DNA from: Candidatus Hydrogenedentota bacterium
GTDB lineage: Bacteria; Hydrogenedentota; Hydrogenedentia; Hydrogenedentales; CAITNO01
Direction of reading: 5' to 3'
Assembly (NCBI GenBank): GCA_019455225.1
Contig: JACFMU010000010.1
Span: 975 to 64,974, forward strand
Length of the DNA stretch: 64,000 nucleotides
The stretch's first letter is position 1; each line of letters begins with the position of its first letter. The notes below the pieces were generated by a model, which did no database searches, was not told the origin of the DNA, and saw only the letters and a program-made list of their open reading frames with translations. A program made the position numbers and the translations under genes. Shown piece by piece: positions 14,782 to 38,836 of the stretch.

Positions 14782-15804
14782 ATGGCGGCGGCGGCCAAAA
14801 CAGTCAAATCGGTTGAGTCCGGCATGTTGCGCGACGGATGCGGCCGCGTTCATGACTATCTGCGCATTGCCGTGACGGACCGGTGCAACCTGCGGTGCCT
14901 GTACTGCATGCCCTCCGGTGTCAAATGCGCGGCGCCGGCCGAAACGCTGCTCACGGATGATGAGATTGTCCGGATCAGCCGCCTGTTCGCGCGGCTCGGG
15001 GTGGTCAAAATCCGCCTGACCGGCGGGGAGCCGCTGCTGCGGCCGGGGATTTCCGGCCTTGCGGCCAGACTCGCCGCCGTTTCCGGCATACACACGGTCG
15101 CCGTGACGACCAACGGGCTGCGCCTCGCCGAAAAGGTCCGCGCGCTCCGGGACGCCGGCGTGCGCGGAATCAATGTGAGCCTGGACAGTCTGCGCCCGGA
15201 GCGTTTCCGGCGGATTGCCGGCCATGACGGCCTGGCGCGCGTGCTGGACGGAATCGCGGCGGCGCTTGACTGCGGGATTCAGCCCCTCAAAATCAACATG
15301 GTGGTGATGGGCGGGCTGAACGACGATGAATTGTTGGACTTTGTGGAGCTCACCCGCAACAGCCCGGCATGCGTCAGGTTTATCGAGTTCATGCCGTTTC
15401 CGGGAAATCCCTGGTGCGACGCGCAGGTGGTCCCCCATGCGGCCATGCGGAAAGCCATCGAGTCCCGGCACCCCCTTGAGACGGTTTCCGGCACAGTCCG
15501 GGGGCGGGTCGCGAAAGAGTTCAGGGTGCCCGGTTTCAGGGGGTCCCTCGGCTTCATCACGCCGATGACGGACCATTTCTGCGGGGGCTGCTCCAGGCTC
15601 CGGCTCACTGCGGACGGTTCCCTGAAGACCTGCCTTTTTCATGCGCCCGAATTCAGCCTGCGCGACGCGATGCGCGGCGGGGCGGATGACGGGGACCTGG
15701 CGGACATGGTCCAGAGCGCGCTGAAGGGCAAGCCGCGCGCCCATGCGGAGGGCGCCGTCCTGGTCGCGGGGGGAGGCAGGAGCATGTTTCAGATTGGCGG
15801 TTGA
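14782..15804 (+). CDS. moaA: GTP 3',8-cyclase MoaA (radical SAM)
   Basis: CNLRCLYCM radical-SAM motif. C-terminal CGGCSRLRLTADGSLKTCLF cluster. Confidence 0.9.
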   Translation: MAAAAKTVKSVESGMLRDGCGRVHDYLRIAVTDRCNLRCLYCMPSGVKCAAPAETLLTDDEIVRISRLFARLGVVKIRLTGGEPLLRPGISGLAARLAAVSGIHTVAVTTNGLRLAEKVRALRDAGVRGINVSLDSLRPERFRRIAGHDGLARVLDGIAAALDCGIQPLKINMVVMGGLNDDELLDFVELTRNSPACVRFIEFMPFPGNPWCDAQVVPHAAMRKAIESRHPLETVSGTVRGRVAKEFRVPGFRGSLGFITPMTDHFCGGCSRLRLTADGSLKTCLFHAPEFSLRDAMRGGADDGDLADMVQSALKGKPRAHAEGAVLVAGGGRSMFQIGG

Positions 15805-24105: not shown

Positions 24106-24216
24106 CGCTCTTGCGCGGCTCCTCTGGTTTGGGCCAATGCGCATAGCGTAGTGCATCAGGCGCGCCCGCGCAAAATTCAGGGATGGGAGGATGCACATTC
24201 GGGGACAGGCCTGCCT

Positions 24217-24276
24217 GGGAACGCCAATCTCCCGATTGGCCCGCCATAAGATGCCAATCAGGAGATTGGCGTTCCC
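24217..24276. repeat. REPIN-like inverted pair of the 24-27-bp REP unit (GGGAACGCCAATCTCCCGATTGGC ... GCCAATCAGGAGATTGGCGTTCCC)
   Basis: Two units in inverted orientation separated by 12 bp. Each unit contains a 7-bp stem hairpin, GCCAATC / GATTGGC. Confidence 0.9.
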
Positions 24277-24382
24277 GGGAGGTGCGCTCCCAGGCGGGCA
24301 CTCCGCGTTGAACGTCGCGTTCACAGGCCCTTATACTCCGGGGAGAGAGGGCTTTGGGCAATTTTACAGGAGGGCGTTTGCC

Positions 24383-27916: not shown

Positions 27917-27944
27917 TAACCGCCTTTCGTCACGGATAGCGCAT

Positions 27945-28037
27945 AACTGGGAACGCCCTTCCTGGGAACGCCCTTTCTGGGAACGCCAATCTCCCGATTG
28001 GCTGTTTTAAGATGCCAATCAGGAGATTGGCGTTCCC
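27945..28037. repeat. REP cluster: two degenerate partial units followed by a full inverted REP pair
   Basis: ctgggaacgccctt, cctgggaacgcccttt, then a full forward unit at 27978, an 11-bp spacer and a reverse unit at 28014. Confidence 0.9.
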
Positions 28038-28134
28038 AGAAGAGTGCCGTTCCTAGGAGAGTGCTGTCCCTCTGGCAATGTCGCCGCCGGGGAGGGTATC
28101 ATGGTTGCCGGCAAAACAAGGGGATCCGGAATCC

Positions 28135-29868
28135 ATGTTTGAGCAAGTCTTCAAGAACGTTGACGATGTCCTGTGGAAAGAGGCCGGCTGCACCACGGAG
28201 CTGGACTACACCGAGCAGTCGTCGTGGCTACTTTTCCTGAAATACTTGGACGAACTGGAGCAGGACCGGGCAATGGAGGCGGAACTGGAGGGGCGGGCGT
28301 ATTCGTTCATACTCGACAGTCCGTACCGCTGGGAAAGCTGGGCCGCGCCCAAGGGTCCGGACGGGAAGGTTGACCACAACAGGGCGCTCACGGGCGACGA
28401 CCTGCGCGACTTCGTGAACCTGAAACTCTTCCCCTACCTGCACGGGTTCAAGCAGAAGGCCAGCGGGCCGAACACCATCGAGTACAAGATTGGCGAGATT
28501 TTCGGCGAGCTCAAGAACCGGATTCAGAGCGGCTACAACCTGCGCGAGATCATTGACCACATAGACGAACTGCGCTTCCGCTCGCAGACCGAGAAGCACG
28601 AGCTGTCGCACCTCTACGAGGCGAAGATCAGGAACATGGGCAACGCCGGGCGCAACGGCGGCGAGTACTACACCCCGCGCCCGCTCATCCGCGCCATTGT
28701 CCGGGTGGTGAAACCCAAAATCGGGGAAACCATCTACGATGGGGCCTGCGGCTCCGCGGGCTTCCTGTGCGAGGCTTTCGAGTATCTCAAAAACCCCGGG
28801 AACGACAATCCTGGGAACTACAATCTCCCGATTGGCTCGTCAAAATCTGCCAATCAGGAGATTGGCGTTCCCGGGGAAAGAGCCAATCAGGAGATTGGCG
28901 TTCCCAGGAGAAGCGCTACCGGGCTGAGCGTAAAAGACCTGCAAACGCTCCAGGAACGGACCTTCTACGGCAAGGAGAAGAAGAGCCTCGCCTACGTCAT
29001 CGCCATCATGAACATGATCCTCCACGGCATTGACGCGCCGAACATCCTCCACACGAACACGCTCACGGAGAACCTGGCCGACGTGCAGGAGAAGGACCGT
29101 TTCGACGTGATCCTCGCCAATCCGCCCTTTGGTGCCAAGGAGCGCAGGGAGGTCCAGCAGAACTTCCCCATCCGCACCGGCGATACCGCCTACCTCTTCC
29201 TACAGCACTTCATCAAGATGCTCCGGGCCGGGGGCCGCGCGGGCGTGGTCATCAAGAACACCTTCCTGTCCAACACGGACAACGCCTCCGTCAGCCTGCG
29301 CAGGCTGCTCCTCGAAAGCTGCAACCTGCACACCGTCCTCGACTGCCCCGGCGGCACCTTCTTGGGGGCGGGCGTGAAGACCGTCGTCCTCTTTTTCGAG
29401 AAGGGCGCGCCCACCCGGAAAATCTGGTACTACCAGCTCGACCCCGGACGCAGCCTCGGCAAGACCAACCCCCTCAACGACGACGACCTCGCCGAGTTCG
29501 TCGAACTGCAAAAGACCTGCGCCAACTCCCCCAAAAGCTGGACGGTGGACGCCGCGACCATAGACAAGACGACCTTTGACCTTTCCGTGAAGAACCCCAA
29601 CGGCGGCGAGGAGGTCATCCACCGCAGCCCGCTGGACATCTTGGACGAAATCGCCGCGCTGGACGCCGAAAGCGCCGAAGTGCTGGAAAACATCCGGGTG
29701 TTGCTCACCACCGACTCCGAAAACACCCCCTATGGGAACGCCTCCCCTGGGAACGCCAATCTCCCGATTGGCTCTTCTTCCTCCTCCACCCCTGAAAACG
29801 CCCATCACCCGGTTGGCGAACTGGGGGATGCCAATCGGGAGATTGGCGTTCCCAGGAGGGGAAAATGA
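28135..29868 (+). CDS. hsdM: Type I restriction-modification methyltransferase HsdM (N6-adenine), carrying in-frame REP insertions
   Basis: HsdM_N region (SWLLFLKYLDELE), motif I (YDGACGSAGFL) and motif IV (NPPFG). Repeat-derived peptides NPGNYNLPIGSSKSANQEIGVPGERANQEIGVP sit between motif I and the YGKE block. A second REP pair at the C-terminus precedes the stop. The stop overlaps the hsdS ATG (ATGA). Confidence 0.9.
   Translation: MFEQVFKNVDDVLWKEAGCTTELDYTEQSSWLLFLKYLDELEQDRAMEAELEGRAYSFILDSPYRWESWAAPKGPDGKVDHNRALTGDDLRDFVNLKLFPYLHGFKQKASGPNTIEYKIGEIFGELKNRIQSGYNLREIIDHIDELRFRSQTEKHELSHLYEAKIRNMGNAGRNGGEYYTPRPLIRAIVRVVKPKIGETIYDGACGSAGFLCEAFEYLKNPGNDNPGNYNLPIGSSKSANQEIGVPGERANQEIGVPRRSATGLSVKDLQTLQERTFYGKEKKSLAYVIAIMNMILHGIDAPNILHTNTLTENLADVQEKDRFDVILANPPFGAKERREVQQNFPIRTGDTAYLFLQHFIKMLRAGGRAGVVIKNTFLSNTDNASVSLRRLLLESCNLHTVLDCPGGTFLGAGVKTVVLFFEKGAPTRKIWYYQLDPGRSLGKTNPLNDDDLAEFVELQKTCANSPKSWTVDAATIDKTTFDLSVKNPNGGEEVIHRSPLDILDEIAALDAESAEVLENIRVLLTTDSENTPYGNASPGNANLPIGSSSSSTPENAHHPVGELGDANREIGVPRRGK
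28813..28905. repeat. Three REP units (1 forward, 2 reverse) inside hsdM coding sequence, frame preserved
   Basis: Variant forward unit CTGGGAACTACAATCTCCCGATTGGC, spacer TCGTCAAAATCT, then two GCCAATCAGGAGATTGGCGTTCCC units. Confidence 0.85.
29731..29853. repeat. REP pair (forward + exact reverse-complement unit) at 3' end of hsdM. The reverse unit abuts the hsdS RBS (gcgttcccAGGAGGGGAAAATG).
   Basis: Partial unit tatgggaacgcctcc, a full forward unit at 29747, a 57-bp spacer, and a reverse unit GCCAATCGGGAGATTGGCGTTCCC at 29830. Confidence 0.85.
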
Positions 29869-31007
29869 AAAAGGGGTGGGAGATTAAGACACTGGGCGAA
29901 GTGTGTGAAATCCTGGACCATAAGCGAAAGCCTGTTACCAAGCGGCACCGTGTTAGCGGTCAATACCCATACTATGGTGCAACCGGCATTCAGGATTATG
30001 TGGCCGACTATCTTTTTGATGAGCCACTTGTGTTGGTAGGTGAAGATGGCGCGAAGTGGGGGTCGGGTGAGTGTACGGCTTTTGCGGTAGAAGGAAAATG
30101 CTGGGTCAATAACCATGCTCATGTACTTCGACCATTTCGTGACATCGTCCTTGACAACTGGTTAATTCATTACCTAAATCATTCTGACTTGTCTGAGTAC
30201 GTGTCAGGCTTAACAGTTCCCAAGTTAAATCAAGGTAATCTTCGAGATATCCTCATCCCCCTCCCGCCCCTTGCCGAACAGCGGCGGATCGTGGGCATCC
30301 TCGACGAGGCGTTTGCGGGCATCGCCACCGCCAAGGCCAACGCCGAAAAGAACCTCCAAAACGCCCGCGCCCTCTTTGAAAGCCACCTGAACGCCGTCTT
30401 CACGCAGAAGGGCGAGGGATGGGTGGAGAGGAGGCTGGGGGATGTGTCAGAGGAGTTTGGGCGTGGCAAATCCAAGCATCGCCCACGAAATGATCCAAAG
30501 CTCTACGGCGGAAAATATCCATTTATTCAAACAGGTGATGTGCGTAACTGTGACCACAGAATTACAGCCTACACCCAAACGTACAATGCGATGGGGCTTG
30601 CCCAAAGCAAGTTATGGCCGAAAGGAACTCTCTGTATCACAATTGCAGCCAACATCGCGGAGACTGGTATTCTCGACTTTGACGCCTGTTTTCCCGACAG
30701 TGTCATTGGTGTCGTGGCGGATGAGAAGTCGACGAGCAATAAGTTTTTGGAATACCTTCTCCGAAGCTTCAAGACTCGGTTGCAAGCTCAGGGGAAAGGA
30801 AGCGCCCAAGACAACATCAACCTTGCCACTTTCGAAAATCAAGTTTTCCCATTTCCCGGAAGGCGGGTTCAAGACCAACTCGTCATTGAGCTCGACTCGT
30901 TACGAAAAGACACCCGCCGCCTCGAATCCGTCTACCAGCGCAAGGTTGCCGCACTGGAGGTGTTGAAGAAGTCGCTGCTGCATGAAGCGTTCACGGGGGC
31001 CTTATGA
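29865..31007 (+). CDS. hsdS: Type I R-M specificity subunit HsdS with two target-recognition domains of visibly lower G+C
   Basis: GWEIKTLGEVCEILD start. The central conserved helix is LPPLAEQRRIVGILDEAF...LFESHLNAVF and the C-terminal helix is ...LESVYQRKVAALEVLKKSLLHEAF. Both TRD-encoding segments are AT-richer than their surroundings. Confidence 0.85.
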   Translation: MKKGWEIKTLGEVCEILDHKRKPVTKRHRVSGQYPYYGATGIQDYVADYLFDEPLVLVGEDGAKWGSGECTAFAVEGKCWVNNHAHVLRPFRDIVLDNWLIHYLNHSDLSEYVSGLTVPKLNQGNLRDILIPLPPLAEQRRIVGILDEAFAGIATAKANAEKNLQNARALFESHLNAVFTQKGEGWVERRLGDVSEEFGRGKSKHRPRNDPKLYGGKYPFIQTGDVRNCDHRITAYTQTYNAMGLAQSKLWPKGTLCITIAANIAETGILDFDACFPDSVIGVVADEKSTSNKFLEYLLRSFKTRLQAQGKGSAQDNINLATFENQVFPFPGRRVQDQLVIELDSLRKDTRRLESVYQRKVAALEVLKKSLLHEAFTGAL

Positions 31008-32053
31008 CGCAGGAAAACACCGCTCCTGGGAACGCCAATCTCCCGATTGGCTCTTCAAAATCTGATGCTTCGACCCGGAGGGAAGAGGCCAATCGGGAGA
31101 TTGGCGTTCCCCGGAGGGAAGAGGCCAATCGGGAGATTGGCGTTCCCAGGGGGGAAGAGGCCAATCGGGAGATTGGCGTTCCCAGGGGGGAAGAGGCCAA
31201 TCAGGAGATTGGCGTTCCCAGGGGTGGCGTTCCAAGGGAGGAGGATGACGGAGAGGGCCGGTGGCGCAGCCGGGGTTATTTGCCGCATTTTGATAAGGCG
31301 GAGCGCGCGCAGCATGTGACGTTCCATTTGTCGGACAGTCTGCCGTGGCATGTCCTGAAACGGATGGAGGAGGAGGTCCGCGGATTGCCTGAGGATAAAC
31401 GGGATGTGGAACGGCGCAGGAAAGTGGAAAACTGGCTGGACGCGGGACATGGCTCGTGTGTGCTGCGTGTGCCGGAGGTCGCCCGGAAGGTGCAGGAGTC
31501 GCTGCTCTTTTTCGACGGACAGCGGTACCGCCTCATCGCGTGGGTGGTCATGCCAAACCATGTGCACACGCTTTTTGAACCGCTGCCCGGCTGGTCACTG
31601 AACAAGATTGTCGCGTCGTGGAAGAAGTTCACCGCGCGGATGATCCGCGATTATGAACGGGCGCATCCTGGGAACGGTCCTGGGAACGCGGATCCTGGGA
31701 ACGCCAATCTCCCGATTGGCATCTTCAATACGGCCAATCAGGAGATTGGCGTTCCCAGAGGAGAAGTTCCCGAGAAAATAAACGGGGTTTGGCATCGTGA
31801 GTTCTGGGACCGGTATGTCCGGGATGAACGGCATTTCGAGCGGGTGGTGGAATATATCCACGGGAATCCGGTGACGGCGGGGCTGGTGAAGGTGGCGGAG
31901 GATTGGCCGTGGGGGAGTGCGGGGGTGATTGGAAGGGCCAATCGGGAGATTGGCGTTCCCAAGGAGGAGGCTCCTCGGGGTGAGGGTGCCGGGGAAAGAG
32001 CCAATCAGGAGATTGGCGTTCCCAGGGAGGACGTTCCCAGGGAGGAGGAATAG
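31004..32053 (+). CDS. REP-associated tyrosine transposase (RAYT; IS200/Y1 HuH family). The core is about 31262-31934. The ORF is extended at both ends and interrupted internally by in-frame REP units.
   Basis: WRSRGYLPHFDKAERAQHVTFHLSDSLP is a RAYT N-terminal signature. The HuH motif is NHVHTLF. The C-terminal motif is EFWDRYVRDERHFERVVEYIHGNPVTAGLVKVAEDWPWGSA (Tyr motif plus NPV...DWPW). No IS ends are present. It is flanked by REPs, and its ATG overlaps the hsdS stop (ATGA). Confidence 0.75.
   Translation: MTQENTAPGNANLPIGSSKSDASTRREEANREIGVPRREEANREIGVPRGEEANREIGVPRGEEANQEIGVPRGGVPREEDDGEGRWRSRGYLPHFDKAERAQHVTFHLSDSLPWHVLKRMEEEVRGLPEDKRDVERRRKVENWLDAGHGSCVLRVPEVARKVQESLLFFDGQRYRLIAWVVMPNHVHTLFEPLPGWSLNKIVASWKKFTARMIRDYERAHPGNGPGNADPGNANLPIGIFNTANQEIGVPRGEVPEKINGVWHREFWDRYVRDERHFERVVEYIHGNPVTAGLVKVAEDWPWGSAGVIGRANREIGVPKEEAPRGEGAGERANQEIGVPREDVPREEE
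31025..31219. repeat. REP array: one forward unit then four reverse units arranged as a 36-bp-period tandem repeat (31088, 31124, 31160, 31196)
   Basis: (GGAAGAG)GCCAATCGGGAGATTGGCGTTCCC(AGGGGG) x4 encodes the peptide repeats EEANREIGVPRG. Confidence 0.9.
31677..31766. repeat. Two degenerate partial units plus a full REPIN (forward, 12-bp spacer, reverse) inside the RAYT core ORF
   Basis: cctgggaacggt, cctgggaacgcggat, then CCTGGGAACGCCAATCTCCCGATTGGC ATCTTCAATACG GCCAATCAGGAGATTGGCGTTCCC. Confidence 0.85.
31937..32023. repeat. Two reverse-orientation REP units at 3' end of RAYT ORF
   Basis: GCCAATCGGGAGATTGGCGTTCCC at 31937 and GCCAATCAGGAGATTGGCGTTCCC at 32000. Confidence 0.85.
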
Positions 32054-32172: not shown

Positions 32173-34662
32173 ATGAATGAAGCCGAAACGAGAGCCGAGC
32201 ACATTGATCCCGCGCTGAAGGCGGCGGGATGGGGTGTGGTGGAGGGCAGCCGCATTCTCCGGGAGCACCGGATCGCGCCGGGACGGCTGCAGGGGGGCGG
32301 GAAACGGCACAAGCCGGAGATCGCGGACTATGTGCTGGTGTACCGCAACCTGAAGCTGGCGGTGGTGGAGGCAAAGCCCTGGGGCGCGCCGTACACGGAG
32401 GGGGTGGCCCAGGCCAAGGAGTACGCGAAAAAACTGGCCGTCCGCTTCACCTATTCGACCAACGGGCAGAAGATTTACGGGATTGACATGGAAACGGGCA
32501 AGGAGGGGGATGTCGCCGACTATCCCGGCCCGGAGGCGCTGTGGACGCTGACCTTTGCGGAGCAGAACGAGTGGCGGGACCGCTTTGCCAAGGTGCCCTA
32601 TGAGGACAAGGGCGGCAGCCACTGCACGCGCTATTATCAGGACATCGCCATCCAGAACGTGATGGAGGCGATTGCGGGCGGGGAGGAGCGGATTCTGCTG
32701 ACGCTGGCCACGGGCACCGGAAAGACCTTCATCGCGTTCCAGATCGCGTGGAAGCTCTTCCACAGCCGCTGGACCCTGAACCGGGACGCCCAGCGGCGCC
32801 CGCGCATCCTCTTCCTGGCGGACCGCAACATTCTGGCGGACCAGGCGTACAACGCCTTTTCCGCGTTCCCGGAGGATGCGATGGTGCGGATTGCCCCGGA
32901 GGACATCCGCAAGAAGGGGAAGGTGCCCAAGAACGGGAGTATCTTCTTCACCATCTTCCAGACTTTCATGTGCGAAAATGGCAACACGACCTCTGGAAAC
33001 GCACTGCCCGGGAACGCCAATCTCCCGATTGGCTCTTCCTCCCCTGGGAACGCCAATCTCCCGATTGGCTCTTCAAAGTCTGCCAATCAGGAGATTGGCG
33101 TTCCCAGGGAGGACATTCCCAGGGAGGACGGCCCCGCGTATTACTTCGGCGGGTACCCGCAGGATTTCTTTGACCTGATCATCATTGACGAGTGCCACCG
33201 GGGCGGCGCGAACGATGAAAGCAGTTGGCGGGGCATCATGGAGTATTTTTCGCCCGCCGTGCAGTTGGGGCTGACCGCCACGCCGAAGCGGAAGGAGAAC
33301 GCGGACACCTACAAGTATTTTGGCGAGCCGGTGTTCGTGTATTCCCTGAAGGACGGCATCAACGACGGCTACCTCACGCCGTTCAAGGTGAGGCAGATAT
33401 CCACCACGCTGGACGAGTATGTGTACACCCCGGACGATGTGCTGGTCGAGGGCGAGGTCGAACAGGGGAAGCGGTACACGGAGAAGGACTTCAACAAGAT
33501 CATCGAGATAAAGGAGCGCGAGGCGTACCGGGTGGGGCTGTTCATGGAGATGATTGACCAGCGGGAAAAGACGCTGGTGTTCTGCGCCACACAATTGCAC
33601 GCGCTGGCCGTGCGCGACCTGGTCAACCAGATGAAGTCCGCCAAGGACCCGGACTACTGCCACCGGGTGACCGCTGACGACGGGAAGCTGGGCGACCAAT
33701 GGCTGCGCGACTTTCAGGACAACGAGAAGAGCGTTCCGACCATCCTGACCACCTCGCAGAAACTCTCCACCGGGGTGGACGCGCGCAATGTGCGCAACAT
33801 CGTGCTGATGCGCCCCGTCAACTCGATGATCGAGTTCAAGCAGATCATCGGGCGCGGCACCCGGCTCTATGACGGCAAGGACTACTTCACCATATACGAC
33901 TTCGTGAAGGCGCACCACCATTTCAGCGACCCGGAGTGGGACGGGGAACCTGCGGAACCGACGGGGCCGACAATAACGCGCGTGAAAGAGGACCCGCCGG
34001 AACCGCCGTACCCCGGCCCGGAGCCCCCGGAACCGCGCAAGGAGAAAATTCGGATTAAACTGGCCGACGGGAAGGAGCGCGCCATCCAGCACATGGCGGC
34101 GACCACTTTCTGGAGCCCGGACGGCACGCCGATGTCCGCCGCCCAGTTCCTCGAAAGCCTCTTCGGTGCGCTGCCGGACTTCTTTAAAAACGAGGACGAG
34201 TTGCGGGCCATATGGAGCGTTCCGGACACACGGAAGGCGTTTCTCCAAGGGTTGGCCGACAGGGGCTTTGGCCCGGAGCCGATGGCGGAGATGCAGCGGA
34301 TAATTGACGCCGAAAAGAGCGACCTCTTCGACGTGCTGGCCTATGTGGCGTTTGCCATGCCGACCGTCACCCGCGCGGAGCGCGCCGCCGCCGCCAGGAC
34401 CCGCCTGCATGGGCGCTTCACCGCGAAGCAGGAGGCCTTCCTCGACTTTGTGCTGTCCCATTATGTGCGCCAGGGCGTGGAGGAACTGGACCAGGAGAAA
34501 CTGGCCCCGTTGATCAGGCTCCGCTACAACAACGCCGTGGCCGACGCTGTCGCCGACCTGGGCAAACCCCATGAAATCAGGCGGATTTTTACCGGGTTCC
34601 AGAAGTACCTCTACCAGCCCGCCCATGGCGGCACACATCGGTACGGTTTCGCCTCCGCCTGA
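32173..34662 (+). CDS. hsdR: Type I restriction enzyme R subunit HsdR (helicase/nuclease) with in-frame REP insertion
   Basis: N-terminal nuclease region (AETRAEHIDPALKAAGW...YVLVYRNLKLAVVEAK). Helicase motif I is LATGTGKTF and DEAH-type motif II is IIIDECHRG. The repeat-derived peptide ALPGNANLPIGSSSPGNANLPIGSSKSANQEIGVP lies between motifs Ia and II. Confidence 0.85.
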   Translation: MNEAETRAEHIDPALKAAGWGVVEGSRILREHRIAPGRLQGGGKRHKPEIADYVLVYRNLKLAVVEAKPWGAPYTEGVAQAKEYAKKLAVRFTYSTNGQKIYGIDMETGKEGDVADYPGPEALWTLTFAEQNEWRDRFAKVPYEDKGGSHCTRYYQDIAIQNVMEAIAGGEERILLTLATGTGKTFIAFQIAWKLFHSRWTLNRDAQRRPRILFLADRNILADQAYNAFSAFPEDAMVRIAPEDIRKKGKVPKNGSIFFTIFQTFMCENGNTTSGNALPGNANLPIGSSSPGNANLPIGSSKSANQEIGVPREDIPREDGPAYYFGGYPQDFFDLIIIDECHRGGANDESSWRGIMEYFSPAVQLGLTATPKRKENADTYKYFGEPVFVYSLKDGINDGYLTPFKVRQISTTLDEYVYTPDDVLVEGEVEQGKRYTEKDFNKIIEIKEREAYRVGLFMEMIDQREKTLVFCATQLHALAVRDLVNQMKSAKDPDYCHRVTADDGKLGDQWLRDFQDNEKSVPTILTTSQKLSTGVDARNVRNIVLMRPVNSMIEFKQIIGRGTRLYDGKDYFTIYDFVKAHHHFSDPEWDGEPAEPTGPTITRVKEDPPEPPYPGPEPPEPRKEKIRIKLADGKERAIQHMAATTFWSPDGTPMSAAQFLESLFGALPDFFKNEDELRAIWSVPDTRKAFLQGLADRGFGPEPMAEMQRIIDAEKSDLFDVLAYVAFAMPTVTRAERAAAARTRLHGRFTAKQEAFLDFVLSHYVRQGVEELDQEKLAPLIRLRYNNAVADAVADLGKPHEIRRIFTGFQKYLYQPAHGGTHRYGFASA
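32994..33105. repeat. REP units inside hsdR (two forward, one reverse, plus a partial)
   Basis: Forward units at 33008 and 33043, spacer TCTTCAAAGTCT, reverse unit at 33082. Confidence 0.85.
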
Positions 34663-38570: not shown

Positions 38571-38597
38571 CCTGGGAACGCCAATCTCCTGATTGGC
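38571..38597. repeat. REP unit, TCCT-loop variant (CCTGGGAACGCCAATCTCCTGATTGGC)
   Basis: Direct match to the repeat family, 13 bp after the dehydrogenase stop. Confidence 0.85.
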
Positions 38598-38621
38598 ATC
38601 CATGAAACAGGAACATCCCCC

Positions 38622-38697
38622 GGCGCTAAAGCGCCACCCCCTTCGGAAGGGGGAATTTGTGGGCGCTTGAACTTTTTGGTTGCTGTTTTTTTTGCTG
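38622..38697 (+). terminator. Putative intrinsic terminator: two tandem GC hairpins followed by a T-rich tract
   Basis: GGCGCTAAAGCGCC and CCCCCTTCGGAAGGGGG followed by ...CTTTTTGGTTGCTGTTTTTTTTGC. This is the only strongly AT-rich segment in the region. Confidence 0.6.
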
Positions 38698-38723
38698 TAA
38701 TGGGTGTCACACTGGAAAGAAGA

Positions 38724-38791
38724 GCCAATCAGGAGATTGGCGTTCCCAGGAAGCCGCAATGGGAAGAGCCTATCAGGAGATTGGCGTTCCC
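38724..38791. repeat. Two reverse-orientation REP units (the second has a gcCTatc variant)
   Basis: GCCAATCAGGAGATTGGCGTTCCC at 38724 and CCTATCAGGAGATTGGCGTTCCC at 38768. Confidence 0.85.
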
Positions 38792-38836
38792 AGGCGGGCT
38801 TTCCAAAAGGCATCTTGGACATTTTCTGGAGCAGGC

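What the first reader, a model, noticed from the sequence alone, without database searches (positions are those of the whole stretch)
29731..31219. hsdS behaves like a REP-bounded cassette with foreign (low-GC) target-recognition domains
The specificity gene is bracketed by a forward/reverse REP pair on its 5' side (29747-29853) and by a forward REP plus a 4x tandem reverse array on its 3' side (31025-31219). The RAYT gene lies immediately adjacent. Both TRD-encoding segments of hsdS are clearly AT-richer than the conserved inter-TRD and C-terminal helices and than the flanking genes. This indicates horizontally acquired specificity domains. Inference: single-strand cleavage and joining by the RAYT at the flanking hairpins could provide a route for exchanging hsdS alleles. 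That would be a REP-mediated specificity switch, distinct from known invertase-driven hsdS shufflons. This is speculative.
Basis: inference. Interest (0 to 1): 0.6.

Follow-up and report, generated by a model that had tools for sequence, protein, structure and literature searches.

The report
Ordinary hsdS domain swap beside RAYT
The restriction-enzyme specificity gene does carry foreign, low-GC recognition domains and does sit between REP hairpins, but a close relative shows that one domain was swapped by ordinary recombination inside the gene, not at the hairpins; the unexpected part is that the REP transposase and its hairpins live inside this restriction operon in several phyla.

Summary
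The REPs lie where stated (23 cores in the window against 0.05 expected). Both TRDs are AT-rich at synonymous sites: GC3 is 0.46 and 0.52, against 0.83 and 0.73 in the conserved hsdS segments and 0.83-0.89 in neighbouring genes.

The proposed mechanism is not supported.
- A syntenic relative (L082, HsdM 90% identical) is collinear at 91-96% everywhere except window 29911-30255, which is TRD1.
- Both breakpoints lie inside hsdS: 54 nt past the 5' REP, and at the TRD1/central-helix border.
- A REP-free operon (L168) uses the same 3' junction.
- TRD1 and TRD2 assort independently across database HsdS proteins.
- hsdS has lower GC3 than hsdM and hsdR in 47 of 47 operons of this family.
- REP/RAYT-free operon pairs with 90-97% identical HsdM all carry different TRDs.

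This is classical TRD reassortment in an EcoAI-family Type I system.

The REPs are not extragenic. They are read in frame inside hsdM, the RAYT gene and hsdR. The hsdS-RAYT-hsdR arrangement, with the same REP family, recurs in about 15 loci whose named hosts span four phyla. REPs were found only in RAYT-bearing operons (4/4 against 0/76). I found no description of this in the literature searched.

The parts
28078..29868 (+). hsdM. This is the longest ORF; NCBI annotates 577 aa, so the start is probably 28135. The stop overlaps the hsdS ATG.
   Evidence: Pfam N6_Mtase 7.5e-59 and HsdM_N. P0001 is 100% identical.
28810..28908 (+). REP cluster (one degenerate forward, two reverse) read in frame inside the HsdM loop after AdoMet motif I. 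It is translated as PGNYNLPIG...ANQEIGVP...ANQEIGVP.
   Evidence: The same loop carries REPIN-coded inserts in about 30 of the top 120 HsdM clusters and in L002, L012, L059, L085 and L091.
29746..29856 (+). REPIN (forward 29746-29772, reverse 29830-29856) forming the in-frame C-terminal tail of HsdM.
   Evidence: It folds at -40.7 kcal/mol, z -9.45. It is present only in the window and L082 among the RAYT-bearing operons examined.
29865..31007 (+). hsdS, 380 aa, with two TRDs and two conserved helices.
   Evidence: Pfam Methylase_S 2.9e-46, two stretches. An independent Logan unitig carries the identical gene.
29911..30255 (+). TRD1, the segment replaced between the window and L082. GC3 is 0.46.
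   Evidence: A blastn gap and an unalignable DNA/protein stretch between conserved flanks. GC3.
30256..30434 (+). Central conserved region (CR1), with host-like GC3 of 0.83. Its 5' edge is the recombination junction.
   Evidence: 97.8% nt identity to L082. L168 homology starts exactly at 30256.
30435..30869 (+). TRD2, GC3 0.52, shared with L082 (87.6% nt).
   Evidence: TRD2-only sharers are listed.
30870..31007 (+). C-terminal conserved region (CR2), GC3 0.73.
31004..32053 (+). RAYT ORF of 349 aa. The ATG overlaps the hsdS stop. The catalytic core is at 31256-31933, with the HUH motif (HVH) and the Tyr motif (EYIHGNP) intact.
   Evidence: Pfam Y1_Tnp. NCBIfam REP_Tyr_transpos 84.6 bits against a cutoff of 80, and PDB 4ER8 at 3.5e-9. 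Alignment A3 shows the invariant residues.
31025..31224 (+). Forward REP (31025-31051) plus four tandem reverse REPs (31080-31224, period 36). These are read in frame as the RAYT N-terminal extension.
   Evidence: In L082 the exact REP core matches only the forward REP here, and its RAYT is 33 aa shorter.
31694..31759 (+). REPIN read in frame inside the RAYT, between the HUH and Tyr motifs.
   Evidence: The same loop carries REP-coded inserts in P0121, P0122, P0123, P0127, P0161 and P0229.
31937..32026 (+). Two reverse REPs forming the in-frame C-terminal tail of the RAYT.
32173..34662 (+). hsdR of the EcoAI family.
   Evidence: NCBIfam restrict_EcoAI 794.7 bits against a cutoff of 550. Pfam ResIII and EcoEI_R_C.
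33007..33108 (+). Two forward REPs and one reverse REP read in frame inside the HsdR motor domain, upstream of the DECH box.
   Evidence: Also present in L082 at 14816-14917.
24214..24279 (.). Intergenic REPIN that is absent from L082, an insertion/absence polymorphism.
   Evidence: L082 4474/4471 joins directly across it.
27976..28040 (.). Intergenic REPIN upstream of hsdM. L082 has 1.8 kb with three genes at this place.
   Evidence: It folds at -30.3 kcal/mol, z -11.6.
38571..38794 (.). Intergenic REPs (one forward, two reverse), the outermost copies in the window.

Best explanation
The locus is an EcoAI-family (type IB) Type I restriction-modification operon, hsdM-hsdS-hsdR, in a Candidatus Hydrogenedentes MAG. 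Its hsdS evolves in the classical way. Each target-recognition domain is an independently exchangeable module. It is replaced by homologous recombination or gene conversion, with crossovers in the conserved hsdS segments (the N-terminal 15 codons, the central helix and the C-terminal helix). The TRDs come from a horizontally circulating pool, which is why they keep low GC3 while the conserved segments match the host.

The REPs belong to a RAYT-REPIN module lodged between hsdS and hsdR. That module recurs in this operon family in several phyla and has seeded REPINs, in frame, into permissive loops and termini of HsdM, the RAYT and HsdR. In the Hydrogenedentes lineage it also seeded nearby intergenic sites. 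The bracketing of hsdS by REPs is a by-product of this local REPIN proliferation, not the boundary of an exchange unit.

Shown: the anatomy, the TRD1 replacement and its breakpoints, independent TRD assortment, the family-wide GC3 offset, and the REP/RAYT co-occurrence. Inferred: homologous recombination as the enzymatic route, and translation of the REP-coded peptides.
For: Family identity of the four genes.

The swap. Window and L082 are collinear at 91-96% nt except 29911-30255. The DNA alignment shows identity running from the REP through hsdS codon 15 and resuming at CCCCCTCCCGCCCC, position 30256. The protein alignment gives 15/15 N-terminal residues conserved except one, TRD1 unrelated, and residues 131-380 about 93% identical.

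Other pairs. Breakpoints also fall inside hsdS in L012/L059, L002/L012, L085/L012 and L085/L059. The REP-free L168 shares the 30256 junction.

Mosaicism. Nine clusters share TRD1 (74-79%) but not TRD2 (15-19%). Seven share TRD2 (83-91%) but not TRD1 (18-32%).

Composition. The GC3 step function sits at the TRD borders. L082's different TRD1 also has GC3 0.47. hsdS GC3 is below hsdM/hsdR in 47/47 operons, by 0.18 on average.

Turnover control. All 39 RAYT-free operon pairs with HsdM 90-97% identical have HsdS only 24-42% identical.

Other mechanisms. There is no second hsdS copy in the 64-kb window.

REP module. REPs occur only in RAYT-bearing operons, 4/4 against 0/76. The hsdS-RAYT-hsdR order is seen in L002, L004, L012, L059, L082, L085, L086, L088, L089, L091, L095, L101, L169 and L170. 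Recombination between TRDs as the driver of Type I diversification is established knowledge (PMC3874165).
Against: No enzyme activity was tested. E. coli TnpA_REP bound to a BIME cleaves ssDNA at CT dinucleotides more than 400 nt away from it (PMC3333891). Breakpoints 54 nt and about 400 nt from a REPIN therefore do not by distance alone exclude a RAYT nick as the initiating lesion.

Only one close relative of the window was available, so only one replacement event was seen in this lineage.

The constant 0.18 GC3 deficit of hsdS, even in mid-GC hosts, may have a component other than foreign origin, such as relaxed codon selection.

CR1 is more similar between the window and L082 (97.8%) than the flanks are (about 91%). 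This could reflect a recent conversion tract whose initiation is unknown.
Confidence: 0.8

Rival explanations
1. The RAYT cuts single-stranded DNA at the REP hairpins flanking hsdS and rejoins it, exchanging whole hsdS alleles or TRDs as REP-bounded cassettes.
For: Same-orientation REPs exist on both sides of hsdS, and an intact RAYT is adjacent. An alternative allele does exist between homologous REP flanks in L082. TnpA_REP can cleave at a distance from its REP and performs strand transfer in vitro (PMC3333891). REP copy number and presence differ between the window and L082, so the elements are or were recently active.
Against: The replaced unit is TRD1 alone, with both junctions inside hsdS at the borders of conserved sequence. 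The identical junction is used in a REP/RAYT-free operon. Other RAYT-bearing operons have no REP at the hsdM/hsdS junction, yet have equally diverse hsdS. TRD turnover is not faster with a RAYT. TRD mosaicism and low GC3 are family-wide.
Confidence: 0.05
2. The REPINs at the gene borders act as cis-regulatory structures, for example as mRNA stabilisers, partial terminators or translational pauses. They would tune the HsdM:HsdS:RAYT:HsdR ratio in a translationally coupled operon. This is not exclusive of the best explanation.
For: There are very stable hairpins at every gene junction. ATGA start/stop overlaps are preserved despite REP copy-number changes between the window and L082. Classical REPs are known to affect mRNA stability; this rests on my own knowledge and is only touched on in the PMC3479197 abstract.
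Against: No expression data exist. Most operons of the family work without any REP (76/80). The REPs also sit in internal loops of HsdM, HsdR and the RAYT, where a regulatory role is less obvious.
Confidence: 0.1
3. The low GC of the TRDs reflects amino-acid composition or relaxed codon usage, not horizontal origin.
For: hsdS is 0.18 lower in GC3 than hsdM/hsdR in all 47 operons, whatever the host GC. This hints at a systematic, non-historical component.
Against: The deficit is at third codon positions, with sharp steps at the TRD borders. TRD1 is physically replaced by an unrelated sequence in the sister lineage. The same TRDs occur at 74-91% aa identity in unrelated hosts and in other combinations.
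Confidence: 0.03
4. The mosaic is an assembly artefact: a MAG contig chimeric between strains at the repeats.
For: REPs break de Bruijn graphs. The Logan unitig carrying hsdS ends inside the REPs on both sides.
Against: That unitig, from an independent run, contains the complete hsdS with both TRDs and 33 and 46 nt of flank, identical to the window. L082 is an independent 117-kb scaffold with the same organisation. The TRD1 junctions are not at repeats.
Confidence: 0.02

Closest known systems
TRD reassortment ('domain shuffling') in Type I R-M specificity subunits (EcoAI/type IB and other families; review PMC3874165; natural examples PMC3077401, 10.1101/2022.09.01.506293)
   Same: Two TRDs are separated by conserved helices. 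Single TRDs are replaced with crossovers in the conserved regions. TRDs assort independently across hosts. hsdS composition deviates from the rest of the operon.
   Different: Nothing essential. The only addition is that the operon also hosts a RAYT and REPINs.
RAYT/REPIN (TnpA_REP/BIME, 'REPtron') systems of Pseudomonas and Enterobacteria (PMC3116915, PMC3333891, PMC5581495)
   Same: The transposase is a Y1 HUH enzyme with the RAYT signature, flanked on both sides by inverted REP pairs. REP doublets form long hairpins. There are tandem REP arrays. Copy number and presence are polymorphic between relatives.
   Different: The RAYT here is an operon member between hsdS and hsdR, with overlapping start/stop codons. 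Six of nine REP sites in the window are in frame inside coding sequence. All 23 REPs lie within 14.6 kb of the RAYT. The same RAYT+REP+operon combination occurs in several phyla. The published picture is of extragenic, genome-wide, mostly vertically inherited REPINs.
Phase-variable hsdS shufflons/invertons (Streptococcus pneumoniae SpnD39III/cod locus and others; PMC4948785, PMC7672463, PMC7394358)
   Same: Specificity changes through exchange of TRD-coding segments.
   Different: Those systems need extra silent hsdS copies in inverted orientation, inverted repeats inside hsdS and usually a site-specific recombinase. None of these is present here. The change seen here is between lineages, not within a clone.
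Rickettsia palindromic elements inserted in frame in protein-coding genes (own knowledge: Ogata et al. 2000; mentioned in PMC1779305, PMC10969869)
   Same: Palindromic mobile repeats are tolerated in frame within ORFs, in surface loops, and add peptide segments.
   Different: RPEs have no known cognate transposase and are scattered across many genes. Here the repeats sit in and next to the operon that encodes their RAYT, and are always read in one frame (PGNANLPIG / ANxEIGVPR).
IS200/IS605 'peel and paste' single-strand transposition (PMC5027513)
   Same: The catalytic family of the enzyme is the same, and hairpins serve as recognition elements.
   Different: No element with defined left and right ends encloses hsdS. 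The polymorphism boundaries do not coincide with hairpin-proximal sites.

Membership tests
Type I R-M, EcoAI/type IB family | HsdR matching the EcoAI/FtnUII equivalog model above its curated cutoff | tested here: met
   NF046051 scores 794.7 bits against a cutoff of 550. Pfam ResIII and EcoEI_R_C also match.
Type I R-M, EcoAI/type IB family | HsdM gamma-class N6-adenine methyltransferase with an HsdM_N domain, followed by hsdS in the same operon | tested here: met
   N6_Mtase 7.5e-59 and HsdM_N 1.3e-8. The hsdM stop overlaps the hsdS start.
Type I R-M, EcoAI/type IB family | HsdS with two TRDs alternating with two conserved helical regions | tested here: met
   Two Methylase_S stretches. Conserved N-terminal, central and C-terminal segments alternate with variable TRDs across 120 homologues.
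Type I R-M, EcoAI/type IB family | Bipartite recognition sequence, ATP-dependent restriction, complementation with EcoAI subunits | not testable with these tools
   This needs methylome sequencing or biochemistry.
RAYT/REPIN system | Y1 HUH transposase of the RAYT clade, with intact HUH and catalytic Tyr motifs | tested here: met
   NF047646 scores 84.6 bits against a cutoff of 80. IS200 scores only 24 bits against a cutoff of 55. PDB 4ER8 is the only hit. H102, H104 and Y165 are invariant in A3.
RAYT/REPIN system | RAYT gene flanked on both sides by its cognate REPs in inverted pairs | tested here: met
   The 5' side has a forward REP plus four reverse REPs. The 3' side has two reverse REPs. 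The same holds in L002, L004, L012, L059, L085 and others.
RAYT/REPIN system | REPs are extragenic and dispersed through the genome in tens to hundreds of copies | tested here: not met
   Within the data available, six of nine REP sites are in frame in ORFs. All 23 REPs lie within 24.2-38.8 kb of a 64-kb window. In the 21-kb loci L012 and L059, REPs occur only inside the operon. The rest of the genome could not be examined.
RAYT/REPIN system | Single-copy, vertically inherited RAYT (PMC5581495) | tested here: inconclusive
   There is a single copy in the window. The same RAYT clade, in the same operon position, occurs in Hydrogenedentes, Acidobacteriota, Syntrophus and Kryptoniota contigs. RAYT-bearing operons are not monophyletic by HsdM/HsdR identity. 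No proper tree reconciliation was done.
Phase-variable hsdS shufflon/inverton | Additional full or partial hsdS copies in the locus | tested here: not met
   tblastn of HsdS against the whole window finds only 29865-31004.
Phase-variable hsdS shufflon/inverton | Adjacent site-specific (Tyr/Ser) recombinase and inverted repeats inside hsdS | tested here: not met
   The neighbours are an M28 peptidase, a DUF1559 protein, the RAYT, hsdR and an aminotransferase. L082 has the same neighbours. Inverted repeats inside hsdS were not searched for separately.
REP-bounded (IS200/IS605-like) mobile cassette containing hsdS | Presence/absence or allele polymorphism whose boundaries coincide with the hairpin ends | tested here: not met
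   The boundaries lie at 29911 and 30256, inside hsdS. Sequence between the REP and the boundary is conserved. The same is seen.
REP-bounded (IS200/IS605-like) mobile cassette containing hsdS | Excised circles or empty sites in sequencing reads | not testable with these tools
   There is no read-level access. The Logan unitig ending in REPs is a graph break, not evidence of excision.

The most novel reading that the evidence does not exclude
A clade of RAYTs and its REPINs has become a horizontally travelling, translationally coupled passenger of EcoAI-type Type I R-M operons. Named hosts are Hydrogenedentes, Acidobacteriota, Syntrophus and Kryptoniota. Its REPIN population lives mainly inside that operon, in frame within hsdM, hsdR and the RAYT gene itself, and is probably translated as PGNANLPIG/ANxEIGVPR peptides. 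It does not live in the genome's intergenic space. This would contradict the current view of REPIN-RAYT systems as extragenic, genome-wide and vertically inherited. It would also leave open that RAYT nicking contributes to operon mobility or to initiating TRD conversion.
Probability: 0.4. Interest if true: 0.65.

Novelty: new variant of a known kind. Interest (0 to 1): 0.42.

Why it matters
For the claim as made, the result is a clean negative. It shows ordinary TRD reassortment, so no new specificity-switch mechanism is needed.

For the locus, the result is more useful. It documents a RAYT/REPIN system whose habitat is a mobile defence operon, with REPINs kept in frame inside three different proteins. 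If this holds up, R-M operons are a route by which REPIN-RAYT systems reach new phyla. It would also provide a tractable case (one operon, under 25 REPs) for studying RAYT activity, and for asking whether REP-coded peptides are translated and tolerated in a methyltransferase and a helicase motor.

Tried and rejected
- Exact-sequence look-ups of HsdR with two alternative starts found nothing.
- The exact look-up of HsdS found only a 1.2-kb Logan unitig that ends inside the REPs on both sides. I considered this as possible evidence of an excised REP-bounded unit. I rejected it because unitigs break at any repeat.
- P0329/L168 looked like a third Hydrogenedentes allele (TRD2 91%). It turned out to be a REP-free operon with DUF2513 downstream. 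It served as a control instead.
- I looked for extra hsdS copies in the window and checked the Pfam domains of the neighbouring genes for a recombinase. Both were negative, so a shufflon is excluded.
- I asked whether RAYT-bearing operons form one clade, which would indicate a single acquisition. By HsdM/HsdR identity they do not: there is one Acidobacteriota cluster, the Hydrogenedentes pair and three singletons. The family is too star-like for a firm conclusion.
- Literature searches linking RAYT/REPIN to R-M systems or hsdS returned nothing relevant.
- The genome-contig scan did not contain the source genome. A genome-wide REP census was therefore impossible.

Full report
**1. What is at the coordinates**

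The window (65.7% GC) carries, on the + strand:
- hsdM (28078/28135-29868)
- hsdS (29865-31007)
- a Y1 transposase ORF (31004-32053)
- hsdR (32173-34662)

Pfam and NCBIfam assign N6_Mtase/HsdM_N, Methylase_S (two stretches) and ResIII+EcoEI_R_C. HsdR passes the EcoAI/FtnUII equivalog (795 bits, cutoff 550). The Y1 protein passes REP_Tyr_transpos (84.6 bits, cutoff 80), and its only PDB relative is E. coli TnpA_REP, 4ER8. NCBI names the identical HsdM and HsdS as coming from a Candidatus Hydrogenedentes MAG.

**2.

The REP is CCTGGGAAC-GCCAATC-TCCC-GATTGGC and its reverse complement. The core occurs 23 times, all between 24223 and 38785, against 0.05 expected.

- forward 29746-29772 and reverse 29830-29856 upstream of hsdS
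- forward 31025-31051 and four reverse copies with a 36-nt period (31080-31224) downstream

Forward/reverse pairs fold into long hairpins with z-scores of -9 to -11.6.

Both TRDs are AT-rich, and the deficit is at synonymous sites:

| Segment | GC3 |
|---|---|
| TRD1 | 0.46 |
| TRD2 | 0.52 |
| Central helix (CR1) | 0.83 |
| C-terminal helix (CR2) | 0.73 |
| hsdM | 0.83 |
| hsdR | 0.85 |
| Flanking genes | 0.86-0.89 |

So the refutation 'explained by amino-acid composition' fails.

Two corrections are needed. First, the REPs are not spacers. The 5' pair is the in-frame C-terminal tail of HsdM, and the 3' array is the in-frame N-terminal part of the RAYT ORF, with ATGA start/stop overlaps at both hsdS borders. 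Second, hsdS is not singled out. hsdM, the RAYT and hsdR all have REPs at their ends or inside them.

**3. The decisive comparison**

The HsdM search found one close relative, P0002 (90% aa), on a 117-kb ENA scaffold. Its locus, L082, is syntenic: M28 peptidase, DUF1559 protein, hsdM, hsdS, Y1_Tnp, hsdR.

blastn shows collinear identity of 91-96% across 16 kb, with one hole: window 29912-30255 against L082 11805-12163.

- The DNA alignment places the 5' junction after ...GGCGAAGTGTGTGA(A/G)A, which is hsdS codon 15, position about 29910. That is 54 nt downstream of the end of the REP, and the intervening sequence is conserved.
- The 3' junction is at CCCCCTCCCGCCCC (30256), the start of the central conserved helix.
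- At protein level the N-terminal 15 residues are conserved, residues 16-130 are unrelated, and residues 131-380 are about 93% identical.
- CR1, TRD2 and CR2 are 97.8%, 87.6% and 88.4% identical in DNA.

So an alternative allele does exist between homologous REP flanks. But the exchanged unit is TRD1 alone, and both crossovers are in conserved hsdS sequence. L082's different TRD1 is equally AT-rich at third positions (0.47).

**4. The pattern is general and independent of REPs**

(a) Among more distant RAYT-bearing operons, four pairs (L012/L059, L002/L012, L085/L012, L085/L059) lose homology about 15 nt into hsdS. They regain it about 95-100 nt before the hsdS stop, which is inside CR2 and upstream of the REPIN.

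(b) L168 is an operon without REPs or a RAYT. It matches the window from exactly 30256 to the hsdS stop (83% nt) and not in TRD1.

(c) Of the 120 best HsdS clusters, nine share TRD1 (74-79% aa) but not TRD2 (15-19%). Seven share TRD2 (83-91%) but not TRD1 (18-32%). Many share both, in hosts as different as Desulfomonile, Chitinophaga, Aeromonas, Methylobacter and Nostoc.

(d) In 47 of 47 operons of this family with a full-length hsdS, hsdS GC3 is lower than that of its own hsdM/hsdR, by 0.18 on average. Only three of these 47 (L004, L012, L059) have a RAYT or REPs.

(e) In all 39 RAYT-free operon pairs whose HsdM proteins are 90-97% identical, HsdS identity is only 24-42%, meaning both TRDs differ. 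The RAYT-bearing pair window/L082, at 96% HsdM, still shares one TRD. There is thus no sign that REP/RAYT speeds up hsdS turnover.

(f) The REPIN at the hsdM/hsdS junction exists only in the window and L082. The other RAYT-bearing operons lack it.

(g) No second hsdS copy exists in the window, and no recombinase is among the neighbouring genes. A shufflon is therefore excluded.

**5. Most likely mechanism**

This is classical Type I TRD reassortment. Incoming DNA carrying an hsdS of the same family recombines through the conserved N-terminal, central or C-terminal segments and replaces one TRD. Recombination between TRDs is the recognised driver of Type I diversification (PMC3874165). The junction positions and the independence of the two TRDs are shown here. 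The enzymology (RecA-dependent recombination or conversion) is inferred.

One caveat is needed. E. coli TnpA_REP, once bound to a BIME, cleaves ssDNA at CT dinucleotides more than 400 nt away (PMC3333891). Distance from the REP therefore does not by itself rule out a RAYT nick as the initiating lesion. The arguments against the RAYT model are the controls in section 4, not distance. I put the REP-mediated model at about 0.05.

**6. What the REPs really are**

The RAYT with its REPs is a module that sits in this operon family repeatedly.

- Among the 80 best hsdM loci from species-representative genomes, four have a RAYT homologue between hsdS and hsdR with the same REP family: L002 (Acidobacteriota), L004 (Syntrophus), and L012 and L059 (Acidoferrum/Acidiferrum). 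The RAYT homologues are 48-54% identical over the whole ORF and 59-62% over the core. REPs occur in those four loci and in none of the other 76.
- Three of the four, plus L085 and L091, also have a REPIN in the HsdM loop after motif I, at the same codon position as window 28810-28908.
- About 30 of the top 120 HsdM clusters carry such REP-coded inserts (PGNANLPIG...ANQEIGVP or AIQENGVP).
- Both insert-bearing clusters that I looked up have Y1_Tnp between hsdS and hsdR (L169, L170).
- Starting from the RAYT instead, two of four long-contig homologues are in hsdM-hsdS-RAYT-hsdR operons with 4-nt gene overlaps (L085; L086 from Kryptoniota). Two are elsewhere.
- In a metagenome scan, 6 of 55 informative loci have hsdR directly downstream and 11 of 61 have hsdS directly upstream. 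These are concentrated among the closest relatives.
- By HsdM/HsdR identity the RAYT-bearing operons are not one clade. Repeated capture or frequent loss is therefore likely.

**7. In-frame REPs**

In the window, six of nine REP sites are inside ORFs: the HsdM loop, the HsdM tail, the RAYT head, the RAYT loop, the RAYT tail, and the HsdR motor domain before the DECH box. They are always read as PGNANLPIG (forward) or AN(Q/R)EIGVPR (reverse), although all six frames of the REP are open.

Across RAYT loci, 51 of 63 REPs lying within 400 nt upstream of the RGYLPH motif are in that same frame relative to the core. They occur at many different distances that are multiples of three. Predicted RAYTs of the family almost all begin with a REP-coded head. 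The counts are not phylogenetically independent, but they suggest selection to keep the REPs translatable.

**8. REP dynamics between the two relatives**

- A REPIN at 24214-24279 is present only in the window.
- A REPIN at 27976-28040 sits where L082 has 1.8 kb with three genes.
- The HsdM tail has one forward and one reverse REP in the window, against two forward and one reverse in L082. The 45-nt difference keeps the frame.
- At the RAYT head the window has a forward REP plus four reverse REPs. In L082 the exact REP core matches only the forward one, and its RAYT is 33 aa shorter.
- The RAYT tail has two reverse REPs against one.

The elements have therefore moved or been amplified since the two lineages split. 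Over the same period hsdS changed only by the TRD1 replacement.

**9. Comparison with what is known, and novelty**

The hsdS part is already known biology. The RAYT/REPIN part meets the family's core criteria: the RAYT signature, and REPs flanking the gene in inverted pairs. It departs from the published picture of extragenic, genome-wide and mostly vertically inherited REPINs (PMC3116915, PMC5581495, 10.1101/2021.07.10.451892).

Full-text searches for RAYT or REPIN together with restriction-modification or hsdS found no description of this association. This is absence in the searched library only. The nearest precedent for in-frame palindromic repeats is the Rickettsia palindromic element (own knowledge).

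I rate the whole as a new variant of a known kind. The specific claim under review is not supported.

**10. Limits**

- Only one close relative of the window was available.
- No read-level data and no genome-wide REP census could be obtained.
- No phylogenetic reconciliation was done.
- Translation of the REP-coded segments is inferred from frame conservation only.

Noticed in passing
window 28810-28908 (hsdM), 31694-31759 (RAYT), 33007-33108 (hsdR): REPINs are inserted in frame inside conserved enzymes, always translated as PGNANLPIG / AN(Q/R)EIGVPR. The HsdM-loop insert recurs in about 30 of the top 120 HsdM clusters.
   Followed up: partly
L002, L004, L012, L059, L082, L085, L086, L088, L089, L091, L095, L101, L169, L170: The gene order hsdM-hsdS-RAYT-hsdR, with the same REP family, recurs in contigs named as Acidobacteriota, Syntrophus, Kryptoniota and Hydrogenedentes. 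REPs are found only in RAYT-bearing operons (4/4 against 0/76).
   Followed up: partly
RAYT loci L002-L170; window 31025-31255: REPs upstream of the RAYT catalytic core are in frame with it in 51 of 63 cases, at many different distances. Predicted RAYTs of the family nearly all start with a REP-coded head. This suggests the REPIN is translated.
   Followed up: partly
window 24214-24279 and 27942-28058 vs L082 4471-4474 and 8097-9934: There are REPIN polymorphisms between close relatives. One REPIN is present only in the window. Another sits exactly where L082 has a 1.8-kb segment with three genes (an 88-aa ORF, DUF2089 and a 288-aa ORF).
   Followed up: partly
L002 8755-9850: A second RAYT copy, apparently duplicated or broken, lies upstream of hsdM with five REPs. 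A 256-nt direct repeat occurs three times.
   Followed up: no
HsdM clusters P0090, P0100, P0113 (same loop as window 28810-28908): A different low-complexity insert (for example NGTDGKHGSHGSHKSHVSHQSH) occupies the same HsdM loop. It may be another repeat family, or simply a hypervariable loop.
   Followed up: no
47 operons among L003-L081: hsdS GC3 is lower than that of its own hsdM/hsdR in every operon, by a nearly constant 0.18, even in mid-GC hosts. The constancy is not fully explained by foreign origin.
   Followed up: partly
L001 (Logan unitig SRR27370451_675933): An independent assembly yields a 1,222-nt unitig holding exactly hsdS and ending inside the flanking REPs. This is a graph break at repeats that could be mistaken for a REP-bounded excision product.
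   Followed up: yes
L085 3907-6014; L169 9454-11845; L170 9791-12229: Some RAYT-bearing operons look eroded or rearranged. L085 has a split hsdM and a half-size hsdS (197 aa). L169 and L170 have hsdR split from its EcoEI_R_C domain.
   Followed up: no
L168 1877-1965: A stray copy of the hsdS C-terminal conserved region (84% to window 30911-30999) lies downstream of the DUF2513 gene. It looks like a remnant of an earlier hsdS rearrangement.
   Followed up: no
window 30256-30434 vs L082 12164-12342: The central conserved region is 97.8% identical between the two relatives, while the flanks are about 88-93%. This may be the conversion tract of the TRD1 replacement, or strong constraint.
   Followed up: no
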